The notes below the pieces were generated by a model, which saw only the letters and a list, made by a program, of their open reading frames with translations, searched no databases and was not told the origin of the DNA. The translations under genes were made by a program, and so were the position numbers. 45,190 nucleotides of DNA, from the sequence record PZ050807.1. One strand, 5' to 3'. Positions within the stretch are counted from its first letter, which is position 1, and each line of letters begins with the position of its first letter. Below, one piece after another: positions 1 through 44,651 of the stretch. Origin of the DNA: a phage.

Positions 1-91
1 TTAACGCTAAAAACCAGGCTGTAACGGCGAAGAACGACGCCGTGTCTGCTAAGAACGATGCGCAGACTGCGAAGACTGCCGCAGAAACAGC
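1..91. repeat. Terminal direct repeat; identical copy at 45100..45190, showing the window wraps a circular or circularly permuted genome unit of 45,099 bp
   Basis: Base-by-base comparison of window start and end: 91/91 identical. Confidence 0.9.
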
Positions 92-1589
92 GCGCACACA
101 GGCCCAGTCGGCTAAGACCGCCGCAGAGTCAGCACGTGACGACGCGCAGACGGCTAAGACTGCCGCAGAAACAGCACGCACCCAGGCACAGACCGCGAAG
201 ACCGCCGCAGAAACCGCCCAGGGTGCGGCGGAAGACGCCCGCGATGAGGCGAAGCAATATGCAGAGCAAGCCGGAGCACCATATAAGCAGGTATTACAAC
301 CGCTACCAGACGTGTGGGTTCCGTTTAACGATTCGCTGGATATGCTCGCAGGCTTCGCGCCAGGATACAAGACGGTTACGGTAGCCGACGACGAGGTTAC
401 TATGCCGAGCGACAAGGTGGTGTCGTTTAAGCGCGCATCAACGGCAACATATATTAACAAGTCCGGCGAGTTTAAAATCGCAGAGATTGACGAGCCGAGA
501 TTCGAAAAATACGGCCTGCTCATTGAAGGGCAACGCACTAACTATTTCTCCAACTCCAACACGCCGGAATCATGGAATACAAATCCGCGTCTGACGCGCA
601 GCGAAACTAAGACTGACAGTCGCGGTTTTACTTACGCAACATTTACGCCAGGAAGTTATGTAGGACAGGTCGGTACGTACACGATTATTGCGGGATCGTC
701 GGCAAGTCCCATTGACGCAGTGCAAGACGACCATGTAACCATTTCGTTTAGGGCTAAGGGTGCTAAGCTGCGAATTGGTGCGCGATTTGACAAGGGAAGC
801 CCACTAACCACGGTAGCGATCATGTACGTGGATATGGACGACCTTTCCGTATCCACATCGGGGGCTGACGCTGATAATCTGGTGGTGAAAAACGTATCCC
901 GCGATGGGGAATGGGTGCTGGTTGAAGCTATTTATAAGGTGACGGACGACTCCGCCCAGGTTCGCGGGGTGGTATCGATGGCTAACCAAATCGGCGGCGC
1001 TCTGTTTGACGCAACCAGCACCGTCGATGTCACTACACCGCAAGTGGAGTTAGGAATTAGTGCGTCGTCGTTTATCCCAACCGCCAGCACGCCAACGACG
1101 CGAGCAAGCGATATGGTTAATATCCCAGTAACCAACAATCTACCAAACATTCCGATTAGTGTGATGACCGAAGTGCGCCGCGGTTGGGATAAAGCGCCTA
1201 GTTCGGCACCGAGGATTGCGAACACCATCGGCGTTGCAAATAACAGCGAACAGATTATTCTGGCGTTCCGCAATCCGGCGGATCCATCGGTGCAGCCGCT
1301 ACCATATGCGCAGATGGGTGTGGCACAGGCCTACGTGCCTGCGGGGTTACAACCAGGCAGGCTTATGGTGGCGGGATTCGTCGGCGGGTCAAATGGGAAG
1401 TTCAAAGCGGTTGTAAACGGCACTATGTCGCCGGAGTCTACGTCTAACTGGGCCGGGCCAGGGGCCGCCACTCAAATCCGAATCGGCGGGTCTTCGGCAG
1501 GTGGCGAGCGCCACCTTTTTGGGCACGTCCGTAACTTCCGCATCTGGCATAAAGCACTGACCGACTTACAAATGGGAGAATTAGTATGA
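1..1589 (+). CDS. Side tail fibre protein, C-terminal part (continues in frame from 44652..45190 across the window join)
   Basis: Frame at position 3 is continuous with the ORF starting at ATG 44652 once the 91-bp overlap is superimposed; Ala/Lys/Thr/Gln-rich tandem peptide repeats (AKNDAQTAKTAAETARTQAQ...) typical of fibre shafts; the internal GTG at 42 is unlikely to be the true start. Confidence 0.6.
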   Translation, partial: NAKNQAVTAKNDAVSAKNDAQTAKTAAETARTQAQSAKTAAESARDDAQTAKTAAETARTQAQTAKTAAETAQGAAEDARDEAKQYAEQAGAPYKQVLQPLPDVWVPFNDSLDMLAGFAPGYKTVTVADDEVTMPSDKVVSFKRASTATYINKSGEFKIAEIDEPRFEKYGLLIEGQRTNYFSNSNTPESWNTNPRLTRSETKTDSRGFTYATFTPGSYVGQVGTYTIIAGSSASPIDAVQDDHVTISFRAKGAKLRIGARFDKGSPLTTVAIMYVDMDDLSVSTSGADADNLVVKNVSRDGEWVLVEAIYKVTDDSAQVRGVVSMANQIGGALFDATSTVDVTTPQVELGISASSFIPTASTPTTRASDMVNIPVTNNLPNIPISVMTEVRRGWDKAPSSAPRIANTIGVANNSEQIILAFRNPADPSVQPLPYAQMGVAQAYVPAGLQPGRLMVAGFVGGSNGKFKAVVNGTMSPESTSNWAGPGAATQIRIGGSSAGGERHLFGHVRNFRIWHKALTDLQMGELV

Positions 1590-3339: not shown

Positions 3340-3383
3340 GATTAAACTCCTTCAGGTTGCGGGCCGAAGCCCGCGATTAATGA

Positions 3384-3854
3384 TTATTTAAGTGCGCCAG
3401 TCACCAGTGTTTTTTCCATGTTGCGGAAATCTTCCGGCGTCATGAGGATTTTCGACCCGTCTTCACCGTACAGCGTCACCAGCGGTTGAGCTTTCGCTAA
3501 AACTCCCTTCGGCAGCGACCACGCATCAACCTGTTTCTTCAGGCTTTCCAACTGCGCTGCCGTTACGTCGATCTGGATCTCGTCATGCACAGTTGTGTAA
3601 GACTCACCCAGTAGCGCGGAATATGCCACTAAATCCACAATGTTATCTTCCTGGTGTTTACGGGTCTGGCGTACCAGCTTCAGGCAAATCATAAATACCC
3701 AGGCTTCTTGCTCGGTAAGGTCCCGACCGGTTAGTGCGTTGAATACGGCAGCAATCTGTTTAGCGCTGCGTTCTTCTTTGCTGTCATATCCATTTTCTTT
3801 CCCGCGCTGTTCCATAGTGGTGGCGGCGTTTTTGCAGTATTCGAATGCTTTCAT
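3384..3854 (-). CDS. Hypothetical protein, 156 aa (possibly an all-alpha NTP-pyrophosphohydrolase-like fold; weak)
   Basis: ORF directly downstream of the early promoter at 3900..3928; the segment EQEAWVFMICLKLVRQ...DNIVDLVAY is faintly MazG-like. Confidence 0.5.
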   Translation of the reverse strand: MKAFEYCKNAATTMEQRGKENGYDSKEERSAKQIAAVFNALTGRDLTEQEAWVFMICLKLVRQTRKHQEDNIVDLVAYSALLGESYTTVHDEIQIDVTAAQLESLKKQVDAWSLPKGVLAKAQPLVTLYGEDGSKILMTPEDFRNMEKTLVTGALK

Positions 3855-3894: not shown

Positions 3895-3932
3895 TGGTTA
3901 ATATAGTGCAACCAAATACGGATTGCAACCAA
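3895..3932 (-). promoter_or_regulatory. Sigma70-type early promoter (minus strand): -35 TTGCAA, 17-nt spacer ending in ATTGGTTGCAC, -10 TATATT
   Basis: Read on the minus strand: TTGCAA(3928..3923)-17 nt-TATATT(3905..3900); two copies of the TTGGTTGCA motif. Confidence 0.55.
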
Positions 3933-4154
3933 TTATTTTAATTCCTCAATCAAATTGGCACGGACAATACGGGCCGAGAAGGCATCGCACACAAGATGGC
4001 AACGCGCCGTCATGACAAGCCAGCCGGTTAGGTCACGGCCTAGCAATTGCTCCGGGCGGCTTACCCGCAATACTTTATTTCCAGGGAAAACCAGGTAACG
4101 TTTAATGATCTCATCCACGACGCGCGGACTGCGATCGACGACTAAGATATTCAT
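3933..4154 (-). CDS. Hypothetical protein, 73 aa
   Basis: Strong RBS AAGGAGA upstream of the ATG at 4154; overlaps the 3' end of the methyltransferase ORF by 44 nt. Confidence 0.45.
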   Translation of the reverse strand: MNILVVDRSPRVVDEIIKRYLVFPGNKVLRVSRPEQLLGRDLTGWLVMTARCHLVCDAFSARIVRANLIEELK

Positions 4155-4620
4155 GTAGTTCTCCTTCGCTCATTATCTTGATTTGTGCGCTGCCGTTTGG
4201 TGGCGCTTCTTCAAAGATTATCAATTGCTGACACTTGTTGTTGCTCGGTCCAACCTCGCCAGTGACGGCATGGATAAACCGGATCCGCCAGTCCAGCAAT
4301 ATAATCAGGTTGGCGGTTTTCCGCGCCAGTTTGGCCCACTTCGTGGTCGTGTCCTGGTTAAGCAGCATTACCGTTTTGCGACCCTGCGATGCGCAAGTCA
4401 CCCACGGCAGCGGGTCGGAATACGGCGGATTGCACCACTTCCACCCGTTTAACTCTGACCAGTCCGCATCAAGCGCGCTATGCTCTTTCGTGAAGTAGCG
4501 CGGTAGCAAATGGTTGTGGTCACTCGCCGCCATGTCGTAACGGAATTTAAACGCCTTGCGCAGTGGTTTGAATAAGGCTGGCGGAGTGCGCCAGCTATCC
4601 TTCTGCTCATTCTCCGTCAT
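4111..4620 (-). CDS. DNA N6-adenine methyltransferase, phage Dam-like
   Basis: NPPY catalytic motif (WCNPPYSD) and size typical of the phage N6A-MTase family; start set at MTENEQ (ATG 4620). Confidence 0.65.
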   Translation of the reverse strand: MTENEQKDSWRTPPALFKPLRKAFKFRYDMAASDHNHLLPRYFTKEHSALDADWSELNGWKWCNPPYSDPLPWVTCASQGRKTVMLLNQDTTTKWAKLARKTANLIILLDWRIRFIHAVTGEVGPSNNKCQQLIIFEEAPPNGSAQIKIMSEGELHEYLSRRSQSARRG

Positions 4621-5071
4621 GCTGCGGATCCAGTGCGTAAAGTGGGATCTGTTTGGCGCTTTCCCACAGGCGTTTAATCCTTTCCTGTTCGCCTTTACCC
4701 ATTGGGCGCATGTCCGTACTATAGTTGCCGTTGGTGGTGTCACGCCACGCGATCAGCACCAGGTCTTTACGGTCGATCTTCGTTGTTCGGCCTTTCGGAC
4801 GGACGTATTCTTCAGCACGTTTGCACTGCTCGCGTAGCCCTTCGGCGGTTATCCGGGTGAGCGATACGGATGTTGTGTACCCGGAGCGCTGCATAATGGT
4901 GATCAGTTCGCCCAGCAGTTCGAAGCGTTCCTCTAATTCCAGCAATTGCTTGTTGGTATCCTGGAATTTTTTATACATATCTTCGGCGTGGCTACGTGCT
5001 TCTTCCGCCTTCTCGCGGGCTTCCAGACACTGTGAAGCCCAGTACGCTTTTTCTTCTTGTAAAATTTTCAT
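4607..5071 (-). CDS. Hypothetical coiled-coil protein, 154 aa
   Basis: Charged helical sequence; start overlaps the upstream gene stop (ATGA). Confidence 0.5.
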   Translation of the reverse strand: MKILQEEKAYWASQCLEAREKAEEARSHAEDMYKKFQDTNKQLLELEERFELLGELITIMQRSGYTTSVSLTRITAEGLREQCKRAEEYVRPKGRTTKIDRKDLVLIAWRDTTNGNYSTDMRPMGKGEQERIKRLWESAKQIPLYALDPQHDGE

Positions 5072-5310
5072 TATTTAGTCTCCGTCATGCGAATCTCATT
5101 TTGTGGGATAAATTTGCCGTTCATCTCTACCCAGCAGGATCCGTACCGCCACTGGGTGTTACGACCGGTTTGCTCCGCATACACAGTCACGCATTCGTAC
5201 TTCTTGAAGTAATACGTGCAGGAGGAAGGCATAATGATGCAAAAAACAACTAATAGCATCCACACCCATAACCGCAAAGCACCGTCGTAATCTAAAAAGA
5301 ATCGTTTCAT
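5071..5310 (-). CDS. Small secreted or membrane protein, 79 aa, with its own early promoter
   Basis: Hydrophobic N-terminus (LRLWVWMLLVVFCIIMPSSC); RBS GAGGA; promoter directly upstream. Confidence 0.45.
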   Translation of the reverse strand: MKRFFLDYDGALRLWVWMLLVVFCIIMPSSCTYYFKKYECVTVYAEQTGRNTQWRYGSCWVEMNGKFIPQNEIRMTETK

Positions 5311-5352
5311 CGTCAAATCCTCATATTAAAAAAGGGCGTTCCCTTCAGAACA

Positions 5353-5390
5353 CCCCCAATATAATGCAACCAATCTCGCAATGCAACCAA
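5353..5390 (-). promoter_or_regulatory. Sigma70-type early promoter (minus strand) of the TTGGTTGCA family
   Basis: Minus strand: TTGCAT(5386..5381)-17 nt-TATATT(5363..5358); two TTGGTTGCA copies. Confidence 0.55.
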
Positions 5391-5394
5391 TTTA

Positions 5395-5715
5395 TTAGAA
5401 GAAATTTGGGTCGCTCATCACATCCACAAGATAAAGGTTGTTAAGGCGGTTGCCGTAATGGCCTGGCGTGCGCTGACGGCACACAACAGCGTAACCAGGG
5501 GGGATGGTATTTCCGGTCGCCAGAATCCACGCCACGCGCGCGCCGTTTAGTGATTTACCGTTGTATTCTATGCGGGTGCCGCCATCTGCAGTGTTAAGGC
5601 TGCCAATCTTCTGACCGGTAGAATTGAGACGGATAACACCAGTCTGGCTATCGTAATTAAACAGTTGTTTGGTCAGTGCTACCGAAAAATCAATTGGATC
5701 AAAGATAGTGTTCAT
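5395..5715 (-). CDS. HNH_3-like (homing-endonuclease-like) protein, possibly degenerate
   Basis: Resembles the HNH_3 pattern (GARVAWILATGNTIPPGYAVV...GNRLNNLYLV) but the expected His residues are replaced. Confidence 0.4.
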   Translation of the reverse strand: MNTIFDPIDFSVALTKQLFNYDSQTGVIRLNSTGQKIGSLNTADGGTRIEYNGKSLNGARVAWILATGNTIPPGYAVVCRQRTPGHYGNRLNNLYLVDVMSDPNFF

Positions 5716-6428
5716 TTTAAATTTTCCTCATTGACTGCAATTGCGAAGCCGCGCGGTGTGAGCGACCTGATTAATTTAGTGCGGGCGGACTTACCACCGA
5801 GCAGACTATACTGTTTGGAGTAACCTTTTTCAACAAATACCGGCTTCTTCTCCGGCATCCTGAAGCCGTTCCCCGTCCATAAGCAAGTCAGCTTCGGATA
5901 TGAATCACGCGCGTTGATATATTCCGGGAATAGCGGGTGCACATCATCTTCCGGCAGGTAGCCGCCATACTCCCACGGGTCGAACGAGTGGTCCGGCTTG
6001 CGCCACTGGGTGGATAGCACACTGCGCGGATTCTCTATCATGTATGGCACTTCGAAGAAGTCACCGAGAAAGGCCGCAATCTTCGCCGTGCGCACGGCCT
6101 TAAGCTGGAAAGCCGGGTCTTTAGCGCGTTTGCGCGGGAAAGCTGGCGCGCCGCTAACTGCCAGGTCGGTGCACGGCGGAAAGGCGTAAATAATATCAGG
6201 CGTGCCAAACTCGCCCGCCATAGCGCGGTCTACGAAGTCCAGATCGATAAACACGTTCTTATAGCGAATGCCGCGCCCATAAAGCCGGTAGTGGTTGTAG
6301 GAGCCGTGGTCGGCCCCGTCAAAGTTAAAGCAGGTGCACTTATGCCCCATCTCGGCAGCACGCTCGATCATAAGGCCGCTGCCGTCGAATAATGACCAGA
6401 TGTTTAGTATCCTAACTCGCTTATTCAC
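5712..6428 (-). CDS. Compact DNA cytosine-5 methyltransferase-like protein
   Basis: Motif I-like LFDGSG, motif IV-like PPC (AFPPCTDLAVSG) and ENV-like MIENP; GTG start overlapping the helicase stop (GTGA). Confidence 0.5.
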   Translation of the reverse strand: MNKRVRILNIWSLFDGSGLMIERAAEMGHKCTCFNFDGADHGSYNHYRLYGRGIRYKNVFIDLDFVDRAMAGEFGTPDIIYAFPPCTDLAVSGAPAFPRKRAKDPAFQLKAVRTAKIAAFLGDFFEVPYMIENPRSVLSTQWRKPDHSFDPWEYGGYLPEDDVHPLFPEYINARDSYPKLTCLWTGNGFRMPEKKPVFVEKGYSKQYSLLGGKSARTKLIRSLTPRGFAIAVNEENLK

Positions 6429-7885
6429 TTGCGGCCTCGCTTCTTCTCTTTCATATATTCCATCAGTTCATCCTGGATGTCGCGCTTACCATCACGGCGG
6501 CTTGCCACTAACTCGTCGAGCGTGCCGCGGGCCTGGATAATGTAGACGAATACCGGGCGCGGGTGTCCGGCCTGCATCTGGCGCACCGGTCCGATACGTT
6601 CGACGATCTGCGCGAAGTGCTCAAAGTTCCACGTATCCGAGAAGATAGCGAGGTGGTGTCCGCCGTCCTGTAAGTTAAGACCGTGGCCTGCCGATGCCGG
6701 GTGTGCAAACATGATCGGAATCTCGCCCCGGTTCCACGCTTCCATATCCTTAACGCCTTGCTTGCCCTTACCCATTGCGACACCCTGCGGGAATTTCTTC
6801 TTAAGGCGGGCTAGGTCGTGCTTGTACTGGTAGGCCACAAGCAGCGGTGCGCCGTTAAGTTCTTCTACGATACTTTCCAGGGCGTCAAGTTTGGCGTCGT
6901 GGATTTTCTCCCACTCGTCGGTCCGCTCGCCGTCGTCGTCAACCTTATACACAGCGCCAGATGCAAGCTGGAGGCATTTAATCGTCTTAGCGGCAGCGTT
7001 GGCGGCCTCCACTGTTCCGCTTTCCAGTTCGGCAAATAGCTCGCTCTCGAACTGGTCGTAAATCTTGCGGGCTTTCTTCGGCAGGTCAACCAGCACCGGC
7101 GTGTAAATCGGCTTGTCACACCCGAAGTATTCAGCCGCGTCAACCGTTAGCGAAATATCAGCCAGCTTTGCGTGAATCTCTTTTTCGGAGTTTTTCAGCG
7201 GGGAGTGCTGCATAGTGAAGCTGCCAGGCGCAACCGGCTTACTTATGAACCAGCGGTCGGTGAATGCTTTATAGCTACTGCCGAGGCGTTCGCCACCGTC
7301 AACAAACCAGTTCTGCCCCCACACATCCTTAAGCCCGTTGGGTGCTGGCGTACCGGTCAGGTTAATCCAGCGCTTGACGTGCTTATGTGCGATCGCCGCC
7401 AGTGCGCGAGCACGTTTACTGCCCTGCTTACTGCGGTAGCCTTTCAGCTTAGTGGACTCATCGGCAACAACGACCGTAAAAGGCCACTCCTCGCCGCAAT
7501 AGTTCACAAGCCACTCAACCACATCATAGTTGAGGCACACGACGTTCGCGCCGCTCTCAAGCGCTGTAATGCGGTCCTTCTCCGGTCCGGTGCCGTCTAC
7601 TACCTGAAGCGATGAGAATCCCCATTTATCTTGTTCCGGGGGCCACGTACCGGACGCAACGCGCAACGGGGCCAGCACCAGCACGCGGTCTTCTCCGTGG
7701 TTCAGTATGCCGGTCTGGAACATTTTGTTCAGCGCCCACATGGTAGCGCCAGTCTTTCCCGATCCCATCGTCGCCCAGATATTACAGCGGGCGTGTTTAA
7801 TGATGAAAGACGTGATTAACTTCTGGTACTCGCGCCTGCGAAAACGTGCCATCTTGTTACGCCTTTTTCCAGACTTCTGTTTCAT
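6425..7885 (-). CDS. Superfamily-2 (SNF2/DEAD-like) DNA helicase
   Basis: Walker A GSGKTGAT, DExx box VVADESTKLK, C-terminal helicase motif HPASAGHGLNLQ; start uncertain (ATG 7885 or 7852). Confidence 0.7.
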   Translation of the reverse strand: MKQKSGKRRNKMARFRRREYQKLITSFIIKHARCNIWATMGSGKTGATMWALNKMFQTGILNHGEDRVLVLAPLRVASGTWPPEQDKWGFSSLQVVDGTGPEKDRITALESGANVVCLNYDVVEWLVNYCGEEWPFTVVVADESTKLKGYRSKQGSKRARALAAIAHKHVKRWINLTGTPAPNGLKDVWGQNWFVDGGERLGSSYKAFTDRWFISKPVAPGSFTMQHSPLKNSEKEIHAKLADISLTVDAAEYFGCDKPIYTPVLVDLPKKARKIYDQFESELFAELESGTVEAANAAAKTIKCLQLASGAVYKVDDDGERTDEWEKIHDAKLDALESIVEELNGAPLLVAYQYKHDLARLKKKFPQGVAMGKGKQGVKDMEAWNRGEIPIMFAHPASAGHGLNLQDGGHHLAIFSDTWNFEHFAQIVERIGPVRQMQAGHPRPVFVYIIQARGTLDELVASRRDGKRDIQDELMEYMKEKKRGRK

Positions 7886-8078
7886 GGTGCCAATTCCTCG
7901 TCGTAGCGGTCCAGTTAAATTCGTGCCCCACATGCACGCCGGTCGCTCGGAAGCCTTTAAACTTCTTCCAGCACACAGTTAACGGCAGCGGCTCGCGCAT
8001 TGCGGCGATATACCATACGCGATCGCCGGGTTTGCAGTCGCCCAGTGTGGTAAGGCGGTAATGTTCTTTCATCGTCAT
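7857..8078 (-). CDS. Hypothetical protein, 73 aa
   Basis: ORF with RBS GGAGA upstream. Confidence 0.4.
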   Translation of the reverse strand: MTMKEHYRLTTLGDCKPGDRVWYIAAMREPLPLTVCWKKFKGFRATGVHVGHEFNWTATTRNWHHETEVWKKA

Positions 8079-8327: not shown

Positions 8328-8606
8328 TTATGCGACCAATTCCGCAACCAATAAATCAGCGTCGTGAATGTTGTCGATTACGCGAACGTCGGCCCCGCGC
8401 TTCGCCATGCGCTCATGTTCACGTACCTGGTGCGGCTTCGGCTTACCACCGGGGCGCTTCACTTCAACGAATACGACTCTGCCGTTGATGATGATAATCA
8501 GGTCGGGGGCGCCGGTACGCCCTTCCCATGCCATTTTACGGCAGAATCCACCTGCCTCTTTTACCTCTTTCATCAGGTGACTTTGCACCTTGCCTTCAGG
8601 AGTCAT
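8328..8606 (-). CDS. VRR-NUC domain nuclease
   Basis: PDLIIIINGRVVFVEVKRPGGKPKPHQ matches the VRR-NUC (PD-(D/E)XK) signature; TAATG overlap with the polymerase stop. Confidence 0.6.
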   Translation of the reverse strand: MTPEGKVQSHLMKEVKEAGGFCRKMAWEGRTGAPDLIIIINGRVVFVEVKRPGGKPKPHQVREHERMAKRGADVRVIDNIHDADLLVAELVA

Positions 8607-17755: not shown

Positions 17756-17907
17756 AGCTCTGGTTGCATAATCAACGGCAGCATAGTGAAAAATGCGGCG
17801 GGGGTAGATCTCGGCAACCAATGCGAGTTGAAGAGTGGAGAGTGAAAAATGCAGTTTGCAATTGCAACTCATAGCGATCAGCATTTTCATGCGCGTGATT
17901 AATATTG

Positions 17908-27687: not shown

Positions 27688-28449
27688 TTAGCGCGGAATA
27701 CCGCAGATTTCGTTTAGTGTCTTCACGTCAAGCGCTACTGCCGTTGACTTCTTCTCTTCCTGCGGGATGAACTGTTTCACTTCAGGCCATGCCTTAATAA
27801 GTTTGGTGTCTGTAGTGTACTTATTCAGAGTACCCATAACTGACAATTTAAACTCATCGTATTTAGCACGTAAATCGCGGCGCGCCTTGTCGTTCTTATC
27901 CAGACGTTTGCAAAATTCATGCTCTGCCGGGTAATCTGCACGACCGCGAGGCTTGTAGATCGGCACTTGCTCACCTTCCGCGTTAATTTCCACCAGCGCC
28001 GTAAGTAGCGCAGTTTCAAACCCAGGTACGATTTCGCCAATGTCCGGGGCCATCGAGTTATTGTAGCGGTCTTCCCAGTAGCCTCGGTGACAGCGGCTGC
28101 TGTAGTTATCACCGCTCAATGACAGTGTGCGGATGTTACCACCCATGTTGACTTCGAACGTTGCATCGTACACAGCACCAATGCCGTGGGGCATGTCCTT
28201 GTTATGGCTGAAGGTTGCACGGCTGGCGTACACGCTTATGCTAAACATGCCGTTATTTGTGTCTTGATAGCTGCGCATCATTTTCTGCAACCCAACGAAG
28301 CTGGTAACACCTTTCGGCATCTGATCCAGAGTGATAGCCAGCGCCAGGTCGCGCGATTCGGTCATTAACTTTTTGGCCTGCTTCGTGATTTCGTGGCCTG
28401 CCAGGATGTTAGCCAGGATTTGCTTTTTAATGTCTTTAGTCAGTCTCAT
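27688..28449 (-). CDS. Hypothetical protein, 253 aa; inverted single-gene cassette inside the head module
   Basis: Start at MRLTKDIK (ATG 28449, RBS AGGAAACAACA); own early-type promoter and terminator. Confidence 0.5.
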   Translation of the reverse strand: MRLTKDIKKQILANILAGHEITKQAKKLMTESRDLALAITLDQMPKGVTSFVGLQKMMRSYQDTNNGMFSISVYASRATFSHNKDMPHGIGAVYDATFEVNMGGNIRTLSLSGDNYSSRCHRGYWEDRYNNSMAPDIGEIVPGFETALLTALVEINAEGEQVPIYKPRGRADYPAEHEFCKRLDKNDKARRDLRAKYDEFKLSVMGTLNKYTTDTKLIKAWPEVKQFIPQEEKKSTAVALDVKTLNEICGIPR

Positions 28450-28479: not shown

Positions 28480-28508
28480 AATATATTGCAACCAATTAGC
28501 CAATGCAA
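28480..28508 (-). promoter_or_regulatory. Early-type promoter (minus strand): -35 TTGCAT, 17 nt with ATTGGTTGCAA, -10 TATATT
   Basis: Minus strand: TTGCAT(28508..28503)-17 nt-TATATT(28485..28480). Confidence 0.5.
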
Positions 28509-28515
28509 GCAAATT

Positions 28516-39299: not shown

Positions 39300-39907
39300 C
39301 CACGTTTAAATTATACGGCGTCTTAGGACGCCGTTTTGGTAAAGAGCATAAGCTGGACTGTTTCACACCAGGCGAGGGAATTACCGGTCTGTGTGTGAAA
39401 TTACCCGGCTTACAGGAATATTTAATGTCTGCGCACCTGGACAATATGATGTTCAAAGTGCGTAAAGGCGACCACACAATGGGAAGCACCGATGAACTGG
39501 GCGAATCCCACGGCAACCGCGTCATTACCATCGCGCCAGTTATGACGGGTGCAAAAAGCGGCTTAGGCCAATTGCTGGCTGGCGTGGCTATCGTAGTAGC
39601 CTCGTTCTATACGGGTGGTCTTGCAACTGCCGCTTTCGGAGCTTCCGCCGCCACCGCTGCCGCGATCGGGACCGCCACATTCTCATTCGGTATGTCAATG
39701 GCGCTGGGTGGTGTTATGCAGCTACTATCACCGCAACCGAAAGGATTGCAGACACGCCAGGATGTTGATAACAAAGCATCGTACGCGTTCGGCGGGCCAG
39801 TAAACACGACTGCGCAAGGGACCGCACTTGGTGTATTATGGGGCGAGCGTGAGATCGGCGGCGCTATTATTTCAGCCGGTATCGTAACTGAGGATTTACA
39901 CGAATGA
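39290..39907 (+). CDS. Tail assembly protein I-like
   Basis: Synteny; Gly/Ala-rich hydrophobic C-terminal half; start at MAMTTFKLYGV. Confidence 0.55.
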   Translation: MAMTTFKLYGVLGRRFGKEHKLDCFTPGEGITGLCVKLPGLQEYLMSAHLDNMMFKVRKGDHTMGSTDELGESHGNRVITIAPVMTGAKSGLGQLLAGVAIVVASFYTGGLATAAFGASAATAAAIGTATFSFGMSMALGGVMQLLSPQPKGLQTRQDVDNKASYAFGGPVNTTAQGTALGVLWGEREIGGAIISAGIVTEDLHE

Positions 39908-42900
39908 CTATCGTCTATTCCGTAACGGGCCATAAGGGCGGTGGCGGGAAACAGCATACCCCGCAAGAAACACCCGACAGCCTGCACTCGCTGGCTAAAA
40001 TCCGCATTCTGCTCGCATTGGGTGAGGGGGAATTTGAAGGCATCCCGTCGGCAGCAGAGCTACGCAAGCGCGTCTATCTGGACGGCACGCCGATCATGAA
40101 CGAGGATAACTCGGAAAACTTCCCTGGCGCGCGCGTTGAGTTCCGCCCAGGCACACAGCACCAGGACGTGATTCACGGATTTTCAGCCGTGGAAAGCGAG
40201 TCGTCGGTAAACGTCAAGCTGGAGCAGGGCTCACCGTGGGTACGTCAAATCACCGACACCAGTCTGGACGCGGTGCGCATTCGTATTGGCATTCCTGCGT
40301 TGTACACCAACGAAGATAACGGCGACCTGGTTGGTGGGCGTATCGACTATAAGATCGTGGTGTACACCGACAACGCCGATCCGCGTGAGTTTGCATTCGC
40401 TGCCGTTGGTAAAACAATGTCGCTGTATGAGCGCGACCACCGCATCGAATTACCGTCGAACGTTAACACCGGCTGGCGCGTCGAAGTGCACCGCATCACC
40501 GCAGACTCCACCTCGGCGAAAGTGGTAAACGATATTCGCGTACAATCTATCACCGAGATAATCGACGCCCGTTTGCGCTACCCGCTAACCGCGTTGCTGT
40601 TCGTTGAGTTTGATGCGAAGGCTTTCCAGGATATCCCGCGCGTGTCTATCAAGTGCAAAGGCCGCAAAGTGCTGATCCCGACCAACTACGACCCGATCGC
40701 ACATACCTATAGCGGCGACTGGGACGGCACTTTCAAGCGTGCATGGACGGATAACCCTGCGTGGCACTGGTACGATATTTGTATTACGGAACGCTTCGGC
40801 CTCGGTCGTCGCATCAAGCCGCAGATGCTAAACCGCTATGCGCTTTACCAGATTGCACAACGCTGCGATCAGATGGTTAGTGACGGCAACGGCGGACAAG
40901 AAATACGGTTTAAGAATGATATGTACATACAGTCGCAGACCGACGCATGGACCGTTCTGAAGGACTTAGCCGCCATCTTCGCCGGAATGACCTGGTGGGG
41001 CAATCAGATGCTGAATATTGTCAGTGACCAACCAGTCGCTGCGGTTTCGCACACCATTACGAATGCCTCCGTTATTGATGGGCGATTCGATTATGCGTCT
41101 GGCAGCCAGAAGACTCGCTATTCAACATTCGCGGTGGCATACGGCAATCCGGCTAACCACTACGATGACGCAATCGCAACGGGCCAGCGCGTGGAACTGG
41201 TGCGCCGCCACAAGATTAACCGCCTTGATATTACGGCGATCGGCTGTACGCGTGAATCTGAAGCGCAACGCCGCGGTCACTGGGCGCTTATTTCAAACCA
41301 GCTTGACCAGCAGGTGAGCTTTAAAGTAGGTATGGAAGGTCTGTTCTTCATTCCGGGGAGCGTGGTCGCTATCGCCGACACCAACATTTCCGGCGGTTTC
41401 GAGATTCGCGGCGGTCGCTTACTGGAAGACCCAGGCACGCGCACGGTGCTTAACACAGACGAAGAAATCACATTCCGCCCAGGTGATAAATTCCTGGTGC
41501 GCACTGCGAACGGTAGTGTCGAGACTCGCGCAATATCAAGCGTCAACGGCAACAAGGTTACGTTATCCAGTGCCCTGGATGCCGACCCGATCCCGTTCCA
41601 GCCGTTTTGCGTCGACGGTGATGATATTCAGGTGCAGAAGTTCCGCATCACCGATCTGGAGTATGACGACGCAACCAGCACTTTCTCGGTGCGCGGGATT
41701 GAGTACAACGACAGCAAATATGATGCCGTTGATAATGGCGCTCGTCTTGATCCTGGCATCTTTACGCAAATGCCGGACGGTGTGCTGAAGGGGCCGGAAT
41801 CCGTAACCATTACCCCGTCGCAGATTTCAAGCCAGGGTCAGTTAATCACCAACGTGGATATTGTCTTTCCACCGGTGAAAAATGCCGTTGTATATGAAAT
41901 CCAGTGGCGAAGGACCAGCCTTCAGAATATGGCGTTGCAGTGGGGTAACGACTGGGTAAACTTGCCTCGTACGCCGTCGAACGGTGCACACATCCCCAAC
42001 GTGTTCTCCGGTAACTACCAGGCGCGCGTCCGCGCAATCGGTATGGGTGAAATCTCATCCCCGTGGGTAGAGTCTGCCATCACGCCGATCGAGGGTCGTT
42101 TAGGTGGGCTGAATGCGCCAATCATTACGGCGGCAGTTTCCGGTTTGCATCAGATCTTGTGGAAGTGGAATCACAACAACGCTGCGACCGATATTTCATA
42201 CACAGAGCTTGAAGTGCGCAAGCCAGGGACTGAAGAGTGGCACTTCCTCACTAACGTGCCGTACCCAGGCGCGGAGTACGCGCAGACTTCGCTTGAGTTC
42301 GGGATTTACCAGCAGTTGCGAGCACGCGTAGCAGATAAAATCGGCAACCTGTCCGATTGGTCCGCACCGTTTGAAGGCCAGGTGAGCGATAAAGTTGACG
42401 ACTACATGAAGGGACTCGACGATGAGTTTCTTACTTCTGAAGACGGCAAGCACTTCCAGGAACAGATCGACACGTTCCCGCAAGGCATTTACGAGTCAAT
42501 GCTTACGGACGCGCAGCAGTTGCTTAACGCACGTGCCGAGTATCAAGGTATTTACGCCGAGATCAAAGTGGCCTATACCGTTGCTGCCGATGCGCACCAG
42601 GCGGTCGCTGAACTGGAAACGCTGATCGGCACGCGCCTTGATGATGCGGAAGCCGCAATCCATACGCTACAGACTGCGCAGAGCACACACGAACAGGCGT
42701 TCGCTCAGTACCAGCAAACGGTGTCAGCTAAGTTTGGCGATCAGGAAGCCGCAATCCAGTCAGTGCAAACGGCAACGAGTGATGTAGCCAGCGCTCTGGC
42801 GACCTACAAAACACAGGTAGCCGCGCAGTTCGGGCAACAGTCCGCCGCGATCGAGCAGAAAATGACGTCTACGTTTAACCACTCTGGTGGTAACGCAACC

Positions 42901-43350
42901 TACAGCCTGAAAGCTGGAGTGACGTACAACGGGACGTATTATGATGCCGGTATGCAGCTTTCGGTAGTTGCCGAAGGGAACTCGGTTAAATCGTGCATCG
43001 CGTTCAAGGCGGACCAGTTCTACATCATGCACCCGTCGAACGGTACGCTATCCTCCGCGTTCATCGTTGACGGCGGGCAGGTGTACATCGACACGGCCCG
43101 AATCAAGAACGCGTCCATTAACTTTGCGCAGATCACGGACACGCTGCAATCCAACAACTGGCAGCCTGGCAGCCAGGGGTGGCGAATCGCGAAGGATGGC
43201 GGCGCGGAGTTTAACAACGTGACAATCCGCGGCAACGTGTATGCGCAGACTGGTAACTTCGGTTTTTCAAGTGGGTCGGTACAAATCGACTGGTCGGGGG
43301 TAAACGTGCCGTTGCCTGGCGGAGGGCGGGTTAAAGTGGGGGTGTGGTAA
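39904..43350 (+). CDS. Central tail fibre / host-specificity protein J-like
   Basis: 1148 aa; N-terminus GHKGGGGKQHTPQETPDSLHSLAKIRIL is J-like; synteny. Confidence 0.8.
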   Translation: MTIVYSVTGHKGGGGKQHTPQETPDSLHSLAKIRILLALGEGEFEGIPSAAELRKRVYLDGTPIMNEDNSENFPGARVEFRPGTQHQDVIHGFSAVESESSVNVKLEQGSPWVRQITDTSLDAVRIRIGIPALYTNEDNGDLVGGRIDYKIVVYTDNADPREFAFAAVGKTMSLYERDHRIELPSNVNTGWRVEVHRITADSTSAKVVNDIRVQSITEIIDARLRYPLTALLFVEFDAKAFQDIPRVSIKCKGRKVLIPTNYDPIAHTYSGDWDGTFKRAWTDNPAWHWYDICITERFGLGRRIKPQMLNRYALYQIAQRCDQMVSDGNGGQEIRFKNDMYIQSQTDAWTVLKDLAAIFAGMTWWGNQMLNIVSDQPVAAVSHTITNASVIDGRFDYASGSQKTRYSTFAVAYGNPANHYDDAIATGQRVELVRRHKINRLDITAIGCTRESEAQRRGHWALISNQLDQQVSFKVGMEGLFFIPGSVVAIADTNISGGFEIRGGRLLEDPGTRTVLNTDEEITFRPGDKFLVRTANGSVETRAISSVNGNKVTLSSALDADPIPFQPFCVDGDDIQVQKFRITDLEYDDATSTFSVRGIEYNDSKYDAVDNGARLDPGIFTQMPDGVLKGPESVTITPSQISSQGQLITNVDIVFPPVKNAVVYEIQWRRTSLQNMALQWGNDWVNLPRTPSNGAHIPNVFSGNYQARVRAIGMGEISSPWVESAITPIEGRLGGLNAPIITAAVSGLHQILWKWNHNNAATDISYTELEVRKPGTEEWHFLTNVPYPGAEYAQTSLEFGIYQQLRARVADKIGNLSDWSAPFEGQVSDKVDDYMKGLDDEFLTSEDGKHFQEQIDTFPQGIYESMLTDAQQLLNARAEYQGIYAEIKVAYTVAADAHQAVAELETLIGTRLDDAEAAIHTLQTAQSTHEQAFAQYQQTVSAKFGDQEAAIQSVQTATSDVASALATYKTQVAAQFGQQSAAIEQKMTSTFNHSGGNATYSLKAGVTYNGTYYDAGMQLSVVAEGNSVKSCIAFKADQFYIMHPSNGTLSSAFIVDGGQVYIDTARIKNASINFAQITDTLQSNNWQPGSQGWRIAKDGGAEFNNVTIRGNVYAQTGNFGFSSGSVQIDWSGVNVPLPGGGRVKVGVW

Positions 43351-43356
43351 AACGCA

Positions 43357-43380
43357 AGGGGCCGTTTGGCCCCTTTCTTA
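43357..43380. terminator. Bidirectional intrinsic terminator
   Basis: AGGGGCC-GTTT-GGCCCCT followed by TTCTT; same stem as the terminators at 2743 and 27664. Confidence 0.65.
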
Positions 43381-44343
43381 ATACATATTAGGAAGGACAA
43401 TCAGCGGTGTTGGTACGACAACATTGCGGTTAGGCATCTGGAATTGCTGCCGTGAATAGTTGCCAATGACGCGGTTTTTCGCTGCACCAACGACGCTACC
43501 CGCCATGCGTATCCCGTTCATGCGTACGTGGTTATAACCGCTATTGTTTTCAATAAGCGCGCCCGTGTATGAAAGCTGAATAAGGCTGTTACCGATATTC
43601 TGCCACCCTGCGCTAAGGTCAACCGTCCCGTTAAACACAAACGGCTTATTGACGGTGGAGAATGTAACCTGGCCTGCGTTGTTGGTCATCGTGATACCGG
43701 TTCCGGGGCTTGGCGGTGTGTTATTGAATATAACCAATTCCATGTCAACGGCAGCACCCACATCATCAATCCCGCCGTAAGCCGCATTGCGGACGATAAT
43801 ACTGCCTCCATCGAAGCCAACCGACACGTTAGGGTCATCCCAACGGGCGAACGGAACACCTCCGACCGGCAGCGGCATACTTCCGTTCACATGGACGCGC
43901 TGCGCGTAGCGACAGGTCATCAGCCGAGCGACGTTTGATATGGCGGTGAAGTCCGTCGAGTTAGCCACCAGAAGCCCAGCATTACGCGACCCCACCGGCA
44001 GCACTTCCATAATCGTTCCCGCCCAGGTTGGAAGCCCGCTATAAGCGCCCAGCGCGTCAGCACCGTGCAGCGTAATTCCGCCATCACCATTTCGAGATAT
44101 TGACGTTACAAACATCGGATCGGGTATTACCAGTGTTTGGTCGAACACTTCCACCACTTCAACGGGATTAGTTAGCACGACTATAAGCTGCGATCCAGGC
44201 GTTAGCGGAGTATTGACTGTTAGCGTCTTGTCAGATTGGCAGCGCTGATTAAAATTGGTACAAAAAGACGGAGCACGAAGCCCCGCCGTAATTTCCATTC
44301 TTGGACGCCCATCGTTGTATTCGATAAGGATACCTGCACCCAT
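43378..44343 (-). CDS. Beta-rich hypothetical protein, 321 aa; inverted cassette between J and the tail-fibre genes
   Basis: G/N/T/V-rich with no catalytic motif; RBS GGGAG; co-transcribed with the upstream lipoprotein gene. Confidence 0.5.
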   Translation of the reverse strand: MGAGILIEYNDGRPRMEITAGLRAPSFCTNFNQRCQSDKTLTVNTPLTPGSQLIVVLTNPVEVVEVFDQTLVIPDPMFVTSISRNGDGGITLHGADALGAYSGLPTWAGTIMEVLPVGSRNAGLLVANSTDFTAISNVARLMTCRYAQRVHVNGSMPLPVGGVPFARWDDPNVSVGFDGGSIIVRNAAYGGIDDVGAAVDMELVIFNNTPPSPGTGITMTNNAGQVTFSTVNKPFVFNGTVDLSAGWQNIGNSLIQLSYTGALIENNSGYNHVRMNGIRMAGSVVGAAKNRVIGNYSRQQFQMPNRNVVVPTPLIVLPNMY

Positions 44344-44345
44344 AA

Positions 44346-44570
44346 TTACCACTCCCGTGATTTAACTGATACCGTACCAGAGAAGTTACCGTCTGAATCT
44401 GCCGCCAAACCGGTGAATCGCATGTCAATGTCTCCGGCAGCGACCTTTTGCCCGTCAACATAACGCAACATGCAGCTTCCCGCAACGTAGGTAACGCAAT
44501 CGCCATTATGACGCTCAACAGCACAACCAGACAGCATAGCAACGACTAAAATACTTAATAAAGTTTTCAT
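44346..44570 (-). CDS. Small lipoprotein, 74 aa (candidate superinfection-exclusion factor, Llp/Cor-like by context)
   Basis: Signal peptide MKTLLSILVVAMLSGC with canonical lipobox LSG-C; strong RBS AAAGGAGA; early-type promoter upstream. Confidence 0.55.
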   Translation of the reverse strand: MKTLLSILVVAMLSGCAVERHNGDCVTYVAGSCMLRYVDGQKVAAGDIDMRFTGLAADSDGNFSGTVSVKSREW

Positions 44571-44599: not shown

Positions 44600-44628
44600 A
44601 ATATAGTGCAACCAATACGTGATTGCAA
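44600..44628 (-). promoter_or_regulatory. Early-type promoter (minus strand): -35 TTGCAA, 17 nt with ATTGGTTGCAC, -10 TATATT
   Basis: Minus strand: TTGCAA(44628..44623)-17 nt-TATATT(44605..44600). Confidence 0.55.
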
Positions 44629-44651
44629 CCAATTTATGAGGAGTTTTCGCT

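What the first reader, a model, noticed from the sequence alone, without database searches (positions are those of the whole stretch)
5071..5310. Small secreted or membrane protein with a dedicated early promoter
A 79-aa protein with a hydrophobic, Cys-containing N-terminus is the only gene served directly by the early promoter at 5353..5390. Small envelope-targeted early proteins are often superinfection-exclusion or host-membrane-modifying factors.
Basis: inference. Interest (0 to 1): 0.35.

Follow-up and report, generated by a model that had tools for sequence, protein, structure and literature searches.

The report
Optional small membrane protein of Dhillonvirus
This is a real but optional 79-residue phage gene for a small, membrane-inserted or exported protein of unknown function; it is the first gene of a several-gene operon, not a lone gene with its own promoter, and it is only modestly interesting.

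Summary
The window is a Dhillonvirus (HK578/SO-1-like E. coli siphophage). The ORF 5071..5310(-) is a real gene. It matches phrog_18961 over its full length (E=1.8e-41), has dN/dS of about 0.15-0.24, and is annotated "hypothetical protein" in about 80 phage records. It has a short N-tail, one strongly hydrophobic segment (residues ~14-33) and a conserved ~45-residue C-terminal domain with two invariant cysteines (C40, C59). It has no lipobox, no Pfam/NCBIfam/PADLOC family and no solved relative. The upstream "promoter" is real as a motif: a 33-nt element found four times in the window against zero expected. It is not dedicated to this gene. The gene's stop codon overlaps the start of the next gene, a homologue of the published anti-Tmn protein, which is followed by Dam. 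About half of Dhillonviruses lack exactly this ORF yet keep the same promoter, hairpin and ribosome-binding site in front of anti-Tmn. "Early" timing is untested. Presence or absence does not follow the terminal receptor, and a classical lipoprotein gene sits beside the tail-tip locus, so a Cor/Llp-type receptor block is unlikely. My best reading is an accessory envelope-acting factor, with superinfection exclusion or counter-defence the leading guesses. One paper places the cohesive genome end inside this promoter.

The parts
5071..5310 (-). Small gene, 79 codons plus the TAA stop. Residues 1-13 are the N-tail (MKRFFLDYDGALR; 5310..5272). Residues ~14-33 are the hydrophobic segment (5271..5212). 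Residues 34-79 are the conserved C-terminal domain (5211..5074), with invariant Cys40 (5193..5191) and Cys59 (5136..5134).
   Evidence: ORF and translation. phrog_18961 match, E=1.8e-41. Homologues in 81 phage records. dN/dS 0.15-0.24. Hydropathy. Invariant columns. AlphaFold2 model with mean pLDDT 80.5: helix 10-48, strands 52-55, 58-63 and 66-69, helix 70-78.
5318..5322 (-). Shine-Dalgarno sequence GAGGA, 7 nt upstream of the ATG at 5310.
   Evidence: Sequence. Relatives carry GGAG at the same distance.
5358..5390 (-). Conserved 33-nt promoter-like element, TTGGTTGCATTGCGAGATTGGTTGCATTATATT. The -35 TTGCAT is at 5386..5381 and the -10 TATATT at 5363..5358, with a 17-bp spacer.
   Evidence: 4 copies in the window against 0 expected. 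The 10-mer TTGGTTGCAT, with up to one mismatch, occurs 18 times against 3.7 expected. Present in all the Dhillonvirus loci read here, with or without the small gene. Promoter activity itself was not tested.
5328..5357 (-). G+C-rich hairpin (5357..5332) followed by a T-run (5333..5328). It looks like an intrinsic terminator for transcripts coming from the helicase-Dcm-HNH genes upstream. It starts just after the -10 box.
   Evidence: Terminator scan. Folding z-score -3.2. All variants fold at -14.6 to -19.1 kcal/mol. Two stem versions, GTTC/GAAC and GTCC/GGAC, differ by a compensatory change. Transcripts starting at about 5351 keep only a 5-bp stub. This last step is inference.
5353..5362 (.). 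ATATTGGGGG. This is the position equivalent to the 10-nt 5' cohesive end (ATCTTAAGGG) reported for Dhillonvirus EE09. It overlaps the -10 box and the 5' arm of the hairpin.
   Evidence: PMC10673088. The EE09 record starts with ATCTTAAGGGTGTCC and ends with ...TTGGTTGCATT. Other Dhillonvirus papers report headful packaging or circularly permuted termini. Unresolved.
4607..5071 (-). Next cistron, 154 aa. Its ATG overlaps the stop of the small gene (TAATG). It is a homologue of the anti-Tmn protein (ORF35 of phage SM_S22). PHROGs (phrog_10530) and some GenBank records label it "DNA ligase".
   Evidence: 58% identity, E=1e-64, to SM_S22 CDS0035. The ORF35/CDS numbering was matched through the paper's "CDS6 = nmad5". 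phrog_10530.
4111..4620 (-). Dam-type N6-adenine DNA methyltransferase, overlapping the end of the previous gene.
   Evidence: Pfam PF05869, E=2.7e-37. Translation from the ATG at 4620.
3933..4154 (-). 73-aa protein of unknown function (phrog_10685). It is the last gene before the next copy of the promoter motif (3900..3932).
5395..5715 (-). Upstream gene, an HNH endonuclease-like protein. Its stop codon lies 5 nt before the promoter motif.
   Evidence: phrog_99, E=1e-13. Annotated as HNH or homing endonuclease in relatives.

Best explanation
The ORF is a genuine, non-essential accessory gene of Dhillonvirus. It encodes a mini-protein that reaches the cell envelope through one N-terminal hydrophobic segment. 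The most likely form is a bitopic inner-membrane protein, N-terminus in and C-terminus out. Its conserved ~45-residue C-terminal domain (helix, three strands, helix) would then sit in the periplasm, held by a C40-C59 disulfide. A cleaved, exported form is the close alternative. The gene is the promoter-proximal cistron of an operon, followed by an anti-Tmn homologue, Dam and a 73-aa protein with overlapping or closely spaced reading frames; transcription may continue further. The operon is read from a conserved phage promoter that is present whether or not this gene is. The hairpin and T-run just downstream of the -10 box probably stop transcripts arriving from the HNH gene upstream, while promoter-initiated transcripts lack the 5' arm and read on. 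As for function, I commit to an envelope-level accessory role during infection. The leading guess is exclusion of secondary phage infection at the inner-membrane/periplasmic step (T4 Imm or HK97 gp15 style), not receptor masking.

Shown: the coding status, the hydrophobic segment, the conserved two-Cys domain, the operon arrangement and the precise presence/absence polymorphism. Inferred: the topology, the disulfide, the promoter and terminator logic, and the function.
For: The gene is real and under purifying selection. One hydrophobic segment is present in all 23 family sequences examined, with a Kyte-Doolittle 18-residue maximum of 1.86-3.3. Two cysteines spaced 18-20 residues apart are invariant down to 22% identity. 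The AF2 model (mean pLDDT 80.5) puts C40 on the helix and C59 on strand 2.

The ORF-sized indel is precise. Ioannina and SM_S22 keep the promoter, hairpin and RBS fused directly to the 154-aa gene. About half of the roughly 160 Dhillonvirus records carry the gene. Stop and start overlap as TAATG. The neighbour is an anti-Tmn homologue, followed by Dam.

The family was found only on phage records and phage-like metagenome contigs, in moron-like or operon-first positions. One pattern-limited scan of bacterial genomes with a sub-family alignment found no relative. The promoter motif family is far beyond chance. The hairpin is conserved with a compensatory change.
Against: No experiment or homology links the family to any function. 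Pfam, NCBIfam, PADLOC and PDB sequence and fold searches are all empty, and BFVD fold matches are all uncharacterised proteins.

Topology is not decided by the flanking-charge rule: the C-minus-N charge difference ranges from -3 to +4 across the family.

In the nine Dhillonvirus-type sequences read here, a Pro followed by small residues at -3 and -1 (P-[STAI]-[STAV]-[AGC]) suggests possible signal-peptidase cleavage, which would argue against a membrane anchor.

The phage already carries a lipoprotein gene next to the tail-tip locus, a candidate exclusion factor. EE09 proteomics did not list the homologue (CDS1) among detected proteins, but only four phage proteins were seen in infected cells.
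Confidence: 0.4

Rival explanations
1. It is a counter-defence factor against a membrane-embedded host immune system. It would act alongside the co-transcribed anti-Tmn (Tmn is a KAP NTPase with transmembrane segments) and the Dam methyltransferase.
For: The gene is translationally coupled to an anti-Tmn homologue and shares its promoter. A distant family member (P0013) heads an operon that also encodes a protein with an Acb2/Tad1-hairpin domain. Optional, fast-swapping alleles fit arms-race genes: relatives that are 95% identical in flanking DNA carry alleles only 69% identical in protein.
Against: KS_S9 and Dru_SM5 both carry the small gene yet were still inhibited by Tmn in PMC11846954. SM_S22, which escapes Tmn, lacks the small gene. 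There is no match to any known anti-defence family.
Confidence: 0.2
2. It is an exported periplasmic mini-protein. The N-terminal segment is a cleavable Sec signal peptide, and the mature ~48-residue disulfide-bonded domain acts free in the periplasm, as T4 Spackle does.
For: The Dhillonvirus-type sequences read here have Pro followed by small residues at -3 and -1 right after a ~15-residue hydrophobic core: PSSC, PISC, PSTA, PTAA, PAAG, PTVG. The Jersey-like versions have GLG, GFG or AFS before MVAYDC.
Against: The N-tail carries a protein-level conserved acidic/aromatic motif (FFxDYDGDLR, and DLFDF in distant members) and several acidic residues. That is unusual for a signal-peptide n-region and suggests the tail is kept in the mature protein. 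Some members (P0010, P0014) have no acceptable -3/-1 site. No signal-peptide predictor was available.
Confidence: 0.25
3. It is a membrane protein with N-terminus out and C-terminus in. The conserved domain would face the cytoplasm, and the two cysteines would serve dimerisation or metal binding. It would act on a cytoplasmic or inner-leaflet target such as cell division, a transporter or a holin.
For: Several members have purely acidic N-tails with no Lys or Arg (MDD, MGDFFE, MADLED, MEDLFD) and basic residues soon after the hydrophobic segment. Under the positive-inside rule this favours N-out. The C-minus-N charge difference is +2 to +4 in P0006, P0011, P0013, P0014 and P0017.
Against: The Dhillonvirus and Jersey-like members give 0 to -2, which favours N-in. 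Exactly two invariant cysteines in a 45-residue domain is more typical of an extracytoplasmic disulfide than of a metal site.
Confidence: 0.12
4. It is a lysis-timing regulator, holin-like or antiholin-like.
For: It is small, has a single hydrophobic segment and a soluble domain. In Jersey-like phages the homologue sits next to the spanin gene.
Against: In Dhillonvirus the gene is far from the lysis cassette; the holin and endolysin genes are CDS65-67 in SM_S22. In Jersey-like phages it lies on the opposite strand to the spanin gene. About half of Dhillonviruses do without it. No holin or antiholin family matched.
Confidence: 0.06
5. It is not a gene. The ORF would be a chance reading frame in a regulatory or cos-adjacent region.
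For: It lies 40-50 nt from a reported genome end and from regulatory elements. It is absent from half of the relatives.
Against: dN/dS is 0.15-0.24 with near-saturated synonymous change, and synonymous differences occur inside the conserved N-tail codons. Remote protein homologues exist in unrelated phage contexts. The RBS is conserved.
Confidence: 0.02

Closest known systems
phrog_18961 (with weaker links to phrog_26710, phrog_27356 and phrog_9067): uncharacterised small phage proteins. Examples are bob_8, bas18_0034, EE09_1 and phiEap-2 ALA45592.
   Same: Full-length HMM match, E=1.8e-41. Same length, hydrophobic segment and motif: Y-x-C ... TGRxT ... G-x-C-[YW]-V ... IP.
   Different: Nothing differs. 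This is the family, and no function is attached to it.
Inner-membrane superinfection-exclusion proteins of phages (T4 Imm, HK97 gp15, P22 SieA). Recalled from general knowledge.
   Same: They are small, membrane-inserted, accessory, and expressed apart from the structural genes. They would act on incoming DNA at the inner membrane.
   Different: No sequence or fold similarity was detected. No phenotype is known. The resemblance is one of kind only.
Cor / Llp-type receptor-blocking lipoproteins of T1-, T5- and phi80-like phages. Recalled from general knowledge; PMC8594841 describes the receptor-binding-protein loci downstream of gpJ in Dhillonvirus.
   Same: They are small envelope proteins with cysteines, encoded by related siphophages.
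   Different: There is no conserved lipobox. Presence is uncoupled from receptor type. The window has a separate lipoprotein gene at 44346..44570 beside the tail-tip locus.
T4 Spackle and T4 RI: small phage proteins with an N-terminal export or anchor segment and a periplasmic domain. Recalled from general knowledge.
   Same: The architecture is similar: a hydrophobic N-terminal segment followed by a small soluble extracytoplasmic domain.
   Different: There is no detectable homology. The genomic context differs and the gene is not linked to the lysis genes.
Anti-Tmn (ORF35 of phage SM_S22; PMC11846954).
   Same: It shares the operon, the promoter and the accessory character.
   Different: Anti-Tmn is the neighbouring 154-aa gene (4607..5071), not this protein. 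The two are not homologous, and SM_S22 lacks the small gene.

Membership tests
phrog_18961 (uncharacterised phage protein family) | Full-length match to the family HMM | tested here: met
   E=1.8e-41, residues 1-79 against profile positions 1-80 of 80. All 11 members of alignment A1 match.
Bacterial lipoprotein (Cor/Llp-type exclusion lipoproteins) | Lipobox [LVI][ASTVI][GAS]C at the end of the signal peptide, conserved among homologues and followed by a polar mature N-terminus | tested here: not met
   In the window, Cys24 is preceded by VVF and Cys31 by PSS, with Pro at -3. Only the 011D5 allele reads IAGC, and there the Cys is followed by hydrophobic IGIPSTA. Cys31 is Ala or Gly in most homologues.
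Single-pass (bitopic) membrane protein | One hydrophobic segment of about 19 or more residues with hydropathy above the transmembrane threshold (Kyte-Doolittle about 1.6), conserved as a feature across homologues | tested here: met
   The 19-residue maximum is 2.07 in the window protein and 1.9-2.9 in relatives. The 18-residue maximum is 1.86-3.3 in all 23 sequences. TMHMM and DeepTMHMM were not available.
Sec-type cleavable signal peptide (secreted protein) | Positively charged n-region, h-region of 7-15 residues, and small residues at -3 and -1 | tested here: inconclusive
   A c-region-like P-x-x-[AGC] is present in the Dhillonvirus-type sequences read, and the h-region is about 15 residues. 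However, the n-region carries 2-3 acidic residues and a conserved motif. SignalP was not available.
Periplasmic disulfide-bonded domain | A paired, invariant cysteine pair placed on the periplasmic side and close together in the structure | tested here: inconclusive
   C40 and C59 are invariant in 18 of 18 sequences. Topology by the charge rule is ambiguous. Model coordinates could not be read, so the distance was not measured.
Sigma-70-type promoter | -35 and -10 hexamers close to TTGACA and TATAAT with a 16-18 bp spacer, plus a mapped transcription start | tested here: inconclusive
   TTGCAT (3 of 6), a 17-bp spacer and TATATT (5 of 6). This is below the 9-of-12 threshold of the scan. The 33-nt element recurs 4 times against 0 expected and always lies upstream of a gene. 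No transcription start data exist.
   The TAATG stop/start overlap joins it to the next gene. No - strand terminator-like site lies between 5071 and 2764. The promoter is retained unchanged in phages lacking the gene.
Intrinsic (rho-independent) terminator | A G+C-rich stem-loop directly followed by a T-run | tested here: met
   An 11-pair stem at 5357..5332 followed by TTTTTT. Folding z-score -3.2. Conserved, with a compensatory stem change. Termination activity itself was not tested.
Known superinfection-exclusion, holin or anti-defence protein families | Sequence or fold homology to a curated family | tested here: not met
   No hits in Pfam, NCBIfam or PADLOC. The single PDB-sequence hit (E=0.62) covers only the hydrophobic stretch. 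The best PDB fold match has E=0.75.
Early gene (temporal class) | Transcript or protein appears in the first minutes of infection | not testable with these tools
   No transcriptome for any Dhillonvirus was found. The one proteome (EE09, 25 min after infection) detected only four phage proteins, and the homologue was not among them.

The most novel reading that the evidence does not exclude
The promoter that reads this gene is split by the phage's cohesive end. In virion DNA, the -35 box and spacer would lie at one end of the genome. The last bases of the -10 box, the hairpin and the small gene (starting about 50 nt from the end) would lie at the other. The small membrane protein / anti-Tmn / Dam operon could then be transcribed from this promoter only after the injected DNA has circularised. 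That would be a built-in gate tying expression of counter-defence and envelope genes to successful genome entry and end-joining.
Probability: 0.2. Interest if true: 0.55.

Novelty: new member of a known kind. Interest (0 to 1): 0.3.

Why it matters
Small accessory membrane proteins are among the least understood phage genes, and some of them decide whether a cell can be infected a second time or whether a defence system fires. This one is a clean natural test case. Closely related phages differ by exactly this one ORF, it sits in front of an experimentally validated anti-defence gene, and Dhillonvirus genomes can be rebuilt in vitro (PMC11846954). On present evidence, though, it is a catalogued hypothetical protein with an unremarkable architecture, so the practical value is modest. 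The report also corrects the picture of the locus: the gene belongs to an operon, the neighbour labelled "DNA ligase" is an anti-Tmn homologue, and the promoter may straddle the genome end.

Tried and rejected
- **Curated families.** Pfam, NCBIfam and PADLOC scans of the protein and of 18 family members gave no family.
- **Solved structures by sequence.** A profile search of the PDB gave only one E=0.62 hit, to the transmembrane part of a MotB chimera, which I take as noise.
- **Fold search.** Foldseek against the PDB found nothing below E=0.75. Against BFVD it found only uncharacterised small phage proteins, including phiEap-2 and 9NA.
- **Lipoprotein reading.** Rejected, because there is no conserved lipobox.
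- **Twin-arginine signal.** I considered this because of MKRFFL in the window allele. Rejected: most alleles read MKSLFF, and seven residues separate the motif from the hydrophobic core.
- **Identity with anti-Tmn.** Rejected. Anti-Tmn is the neighbouring gene, and SM_S22 lacks the small ORF.
- **Consensus folding of the hairpin.** RNAalifold on a MAFFT alignment misaligned the 3' arms because the loop lengths differ, so I disregarded that pair table and folded each variant separately.
- **Related loci.** The search for related loci with the whole-family alignment failed because no conserved stretch was long enough. With a sub-family alignment it found no bacterial-genome relative and only phiEap-2 among viral contigs.
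- **Contig ends as a test of the cos site.** Metagenome contigs run across the junction, so the check is uninformative.
- **Literature by locus tag or PHROG id.** The search found nothing.
- **Model coordinates.** They are not exposed, so the Cys-Cys distance could not be measured.
Full report
**What the window is.** A 3-kb stretch around the finding is 98.8% identical to "Dhillonvirus LM40P1" and about 80% identical to many HK578/SO-1-like E. coli siphophages. The finding lies in the - strand block of replication and DNA-modification genes. The order is SNF2-type helicase (6425..7933), Dcm-like methyltransferase (5712..6428), HNH endonuclease-like gene (5395..5715), the small ORF (5071..5310), a 154-aa gene (4607..5071), Dam (4111..4620), a 73-aa gene (3933..4154) and a 156-aa PNK-like gene (3384..3854).

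**Checking the observation.** The window contains 236 ORFs of at least 60 aa, so the ORF alone means little. Three results show that it codes for protein.
- It matches phrog_18961 over its full length (E=1.8e-41).
- tblastn finds it in 81 phage records, 79 of them Dhillonvirus-like, where annotated records call it "hypothetical protein".
- Pairwise dN/dS against six homologues is 0.15-0.24, with synonymous sites near saturation, and 0.05-0.21 in the C-terminal half.

**The protein.** The sequence is MKRFFLDYDGALR-LWVWMLLVVFCIIMPSSCTY-YFKKYECVTVYAEQTGRNTQWRYGSCWVEMNGKFIPQNEIRMTETK. The middle segment is strongly hydrophobic, with a Kyte-Doolittle 19-residue maximum of 2.07 here and 1.9-2.9 in relatives.
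- A phmmer search of 1.84 billion representative proteins found 8 proteins at E up to 0.001, one of them a spurious repeat protein.
- A profile search then brought the family to about 20 sequences of 67-93 residues.
- All share the same plan: a short N-tail, one hydrophobic segment, then Y-x-C ... T-G-R-x-T ... G-x-C-[YW]-V ... I-P-x-x-E. Two cysteines, Cys40 and Cys59 in the window protein, are invariant along with Thr52 and Val61.
- AlphaFold2 on this alignment gives mean pLDDT 80.5: a long helix (10-48), three strands (52-55, 58-63, 66-69) and a short helix (70-78).
Cys31 is not conserved. Cys24 is conserved within the Dhillonvirus-type sequences and lies inside the hydrophobic segment. Neither forms a conserved lipobox.

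**Topology is open.**
- The flanking-charge rule gives C-minus-N differences from -3 to +4 across the family. Dhillonvirus and Jersey-like members lean towards N-in and C-out.
- An invariant cysteine pair in a 45-residue domain favours a periplasmic, disulfide-bonded domain. This is inference.
- In the Dhillonvirus-type sequences read here, Pro followed by small residues at -3 and -1 comes after a ~15-residue hydrophobic core. This looks like a signal-peptidase site.
- Against cleavage, the N-tail carries a motif conserved at the protein level (FFxDYDGDLR, and DLFDF-like in distant members) despite synonymous DNA changes. That argues the tail is retained.
- My estimates are about 0.55 for an uncleaved N-in/C-out anchor, about 0.3 for cleavage and export, and about 0.15 for N-out/C-in.

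**The promoter and what it serves.** The element at 5358..5390 is TTGGTTGCA-N8-TTGGTTGCA-N-TATATT.
- The same 33-nt pattern, allowing up to 3 mismatches, occurs four times in the window, all on the - strand, with none expected by chance.
- Each copy lies directly upstream of a gene: the 156-aa gene, this gene, the nmad5 homologue (27688..28449) and a lipoprotein gene (44346..44570).
- Read as a sigma-70 promoter it has -35 TTGCAT, a 17-bp spacer and -10 TATATT. It is weak by consensus and the generic scan did not list it. Its recurrence and position make a promoter the sensible reading, but no transcript data exist and "early" is untested.
- Directly after the -10 box comes an 11-pair G+C-rich hairpin and a T-run (5357..5328). 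Relatives conserve it in two stem versions, GTTC/GAAC and GTCC/GGAC, which differ by a compensatory change.
- A transcript starting about 7 nt after the -10 box (near 5351) would lack most of the 5' arm. It would keep only a 5-bp stub that is not adjacent to the U-run. The hairpin would therefore end transcripts from the HNH gene without stopping promoter-initiated ones. This is inference.

**The gene is not the only gene served.** Its stop overlaps the ATG of the next gene (TAATG). The following genes overlap or abut, and no - strand terminator-like site lies between 5071 and 2764. The comparison with relatives is decisive. Ioannina and SM_S22 lack exactly this ORF, yet their promoter, hairpin and RBS are fused directly to ATGAAAATTTTAC..., the start of the 154-aa gene. 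The deletion end-points are the two ATGAAA start codons. About half of the roughly 160 Dhillonvirus records carry the ORF. Alleles are shuffled between close relatives: OZ035746 is 94.8% identical over 3 kb but its small protein is only 69% identical. The gene is an optional first cistron, and the promoter belongs to the operon.

**The neighbour.** SM_S22 CDS0035 is 58% identical to the window's 154-aa protein (E=1e-64). Yamashita et al. (PMC11846954) showed that "ORF35" of SM_S22 is an anti-Tmn protein. Their numbering follows the GenBank record, since their "CDS6 = nmad5" matches CDS0006. The small gene is therefore co-transcribed with a homologue of a validated anti-defence gene and with Dam. 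PHROGs (phrog_10530) and some records label this neighbour "DNA ligase". The small gene is not itself the Tmn counter-measure. KS_S9 and Dru_SM5 carry it yet were inhibited by Tmn, and SM_S22 escapes Tmn without it.

**Function.** Nothing known matches. Pfam, NCBIfam, PADLOC, PDB sequence search and PDB folds are all negative, and BFVD folds match only uncharacterised small phage proteins.
- Contexts elsewhere vary. In Jersey-like phages (phiEap-2 and two metagenome contigs) the gene is a lone opposite-strand gene between the spanin and head genes.
- In other contigs it sits in runs of small genes, or is followed by a DUF5131 gene.
- In one contig it heads an operon that includes a protein with an Acb2/Tad1-hairpin domain.
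- A pattern-limited scan of bacterial genomes with a sub-family alignment found no relative.
- Presence is uncoupled from the terminal receptor. JLBYU37 (with the gene) and JLBYU60 (without) are both FhuA-dependent, with 99.3% identical receptor-binding proteins. [quoted passage not shown]
- The window also has a typical lipoprotein gene (MKTLLSILVVAMLSGC...) beside the tail-tip locus. It is a candidate for the Cor/Llp-type exclusion role, though I did not test this.

These points argue against a receptor-masking role. They leave an inner-membrane or periplasmic exclusion step, a counter-defence role, or some other manipulation of the envelope. I commit to exclusion at the entry step as the single most likely function (about 0.3) and counter-defence second (about 0.2). 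None of this is shown.

**An unexpected point: the genome end.** The EE09 paper (PMC10673088) reports a 10-nt 5' cohesive end, ATCTTAAGGG, from PhageTerm. The EE09 record starts with that sequence, followed by the hairpin and the homologue of this gene (CDS 53..295). It ends with ...ATTGGTTGCATAATTAGATTGGTTGCATT. The reported end therefore falls inside the -10 box. The equivalent position in the window is 5362..5353. If this holds, the small gene would begin about 50 nt from one end of the virion DNA, and its promoter would be assembled only after the ends join. The evidence is one analysis. Other Dhillonvirus papers report headful packaging (Opt-212, UDS3lw) or, from Nextera XT libraries, mostly circularly permuted termini. 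Contigs that cross the junction do not settle it. I leave it as the most novel reading not excluded.

**Verdict.** The gene is an ordinary-looking but genuinely uncharacterised accessory envelope protein in a catalogued, phage-only family. Interest is modest at 0.3. It is raised a little by the clean natural knock-outs, the anti-Tmn operon context and the possible cos-split promoter.

Noticed in passing
window 3900-3932, 5358-5390, 28480-28512, 44600-44632 (all on the - strand); single copies near 8330, 11963, 14688, 17905, 21127, 34433: A 33-nt element holds two direct copies of TTGGTTGCA 17 bp apart, the second abutting a TATATT -10 box. It occurs four times against 0 expected, each time just upstream of an accessory gene: the PNK-like gene, this operon, nmad5 and a lipoprotein gene. 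The duplicated 9-mer looks more like a binding site for a phage regulator than a requirement of sigma-70. A related promoter at 17905(+) has only one copy.
   Followed up: partly
window 5353-5362 (equivalent to EE09 record positions 1-10): The position matches the 10-nt 5' cohesive end reported for Dhillonvirus EE09 by PhageTerm. It falls inside the -10 box and the 5' arm of the hairpin. Other papers report headful packaging or circularly permuted termini for the genus. The HNH gene lies immediately upstream, which recalls the HNH-next-to-cos arrangement of HK97-like phages (from general knowledge).
   Followed up: partly
window 4607-5071 (-): The 154-aa gene is 58% identical to the experimentally defined anti-Tmn protein of phage SM_S22. 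PHROGs (phrog_10530) and some GenBank records label it "DNA ligase", which looks like a misnomer.
   Followed up: yes
window 27688-28449 (-): This is a homologue (61% identity) of nmad5, the gene whose point mutations let Dhillonviruses escape Tmn. It corresponds to the N-terminally truncated form, lies on the strand opposite the head genes, and has its own copy of the promoter motif.
   Followed up: partly
window 44346-44570 (-) and 43378-44352 (-): A 74-aa lipoprotein with a canonical lipobox (MKTLLSILVVAMLSGC; phrog_4281) sits behind a copy of the promoter motif. A 324-aa gene follows it (phrog_1265, "membrane protein"), just downstream of the 1148-aa ORF at 39904..43350, which I take to be the J-like tail-tip gene. 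This is probably the receptor-binding-protein and exclusion-lipoprotein locus described for small siphophages.
   Followed up: no
window 5332-5357 and the same site in L001-L007, L011, L018-L021: The hairpin exists in two stem versions, GGGTGTTC...GAACGCCC and GGGTGTCC...GGACGCCC, with different loops. This is a compensatory double change that preserves pairing.
   Followed up: yes
L019 1743-2206 (metagenome Dhillonvirus contig ERR12393983_1204): The anti-Tmn homologue is called as two ORFs of 46 and 111 aa, which suggests a frameshift or stop (a pseudogene or an assembly error) in that phage. The small gene upstream is intact.
   Followed up: no
L017 227-469 and 2605-2850: A distant family member (P0013) is the first gene of an operon in an unrelated phage contig. 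That operon also encodes a protein with an Acb2/Tad1-hairpin domain, a DUF2800 nuclease-like protein, an ssDNA-binding protein and a GapR-like protein.
   Followed up: no
window 3355-3378: A 10-pair G+C-rich hairpin lies between the 156-aa and 191-aa genes. It has no T-run on the - strand, so it is not an obvious terminator for the operon. Its role is unknown.
   Followed up: no
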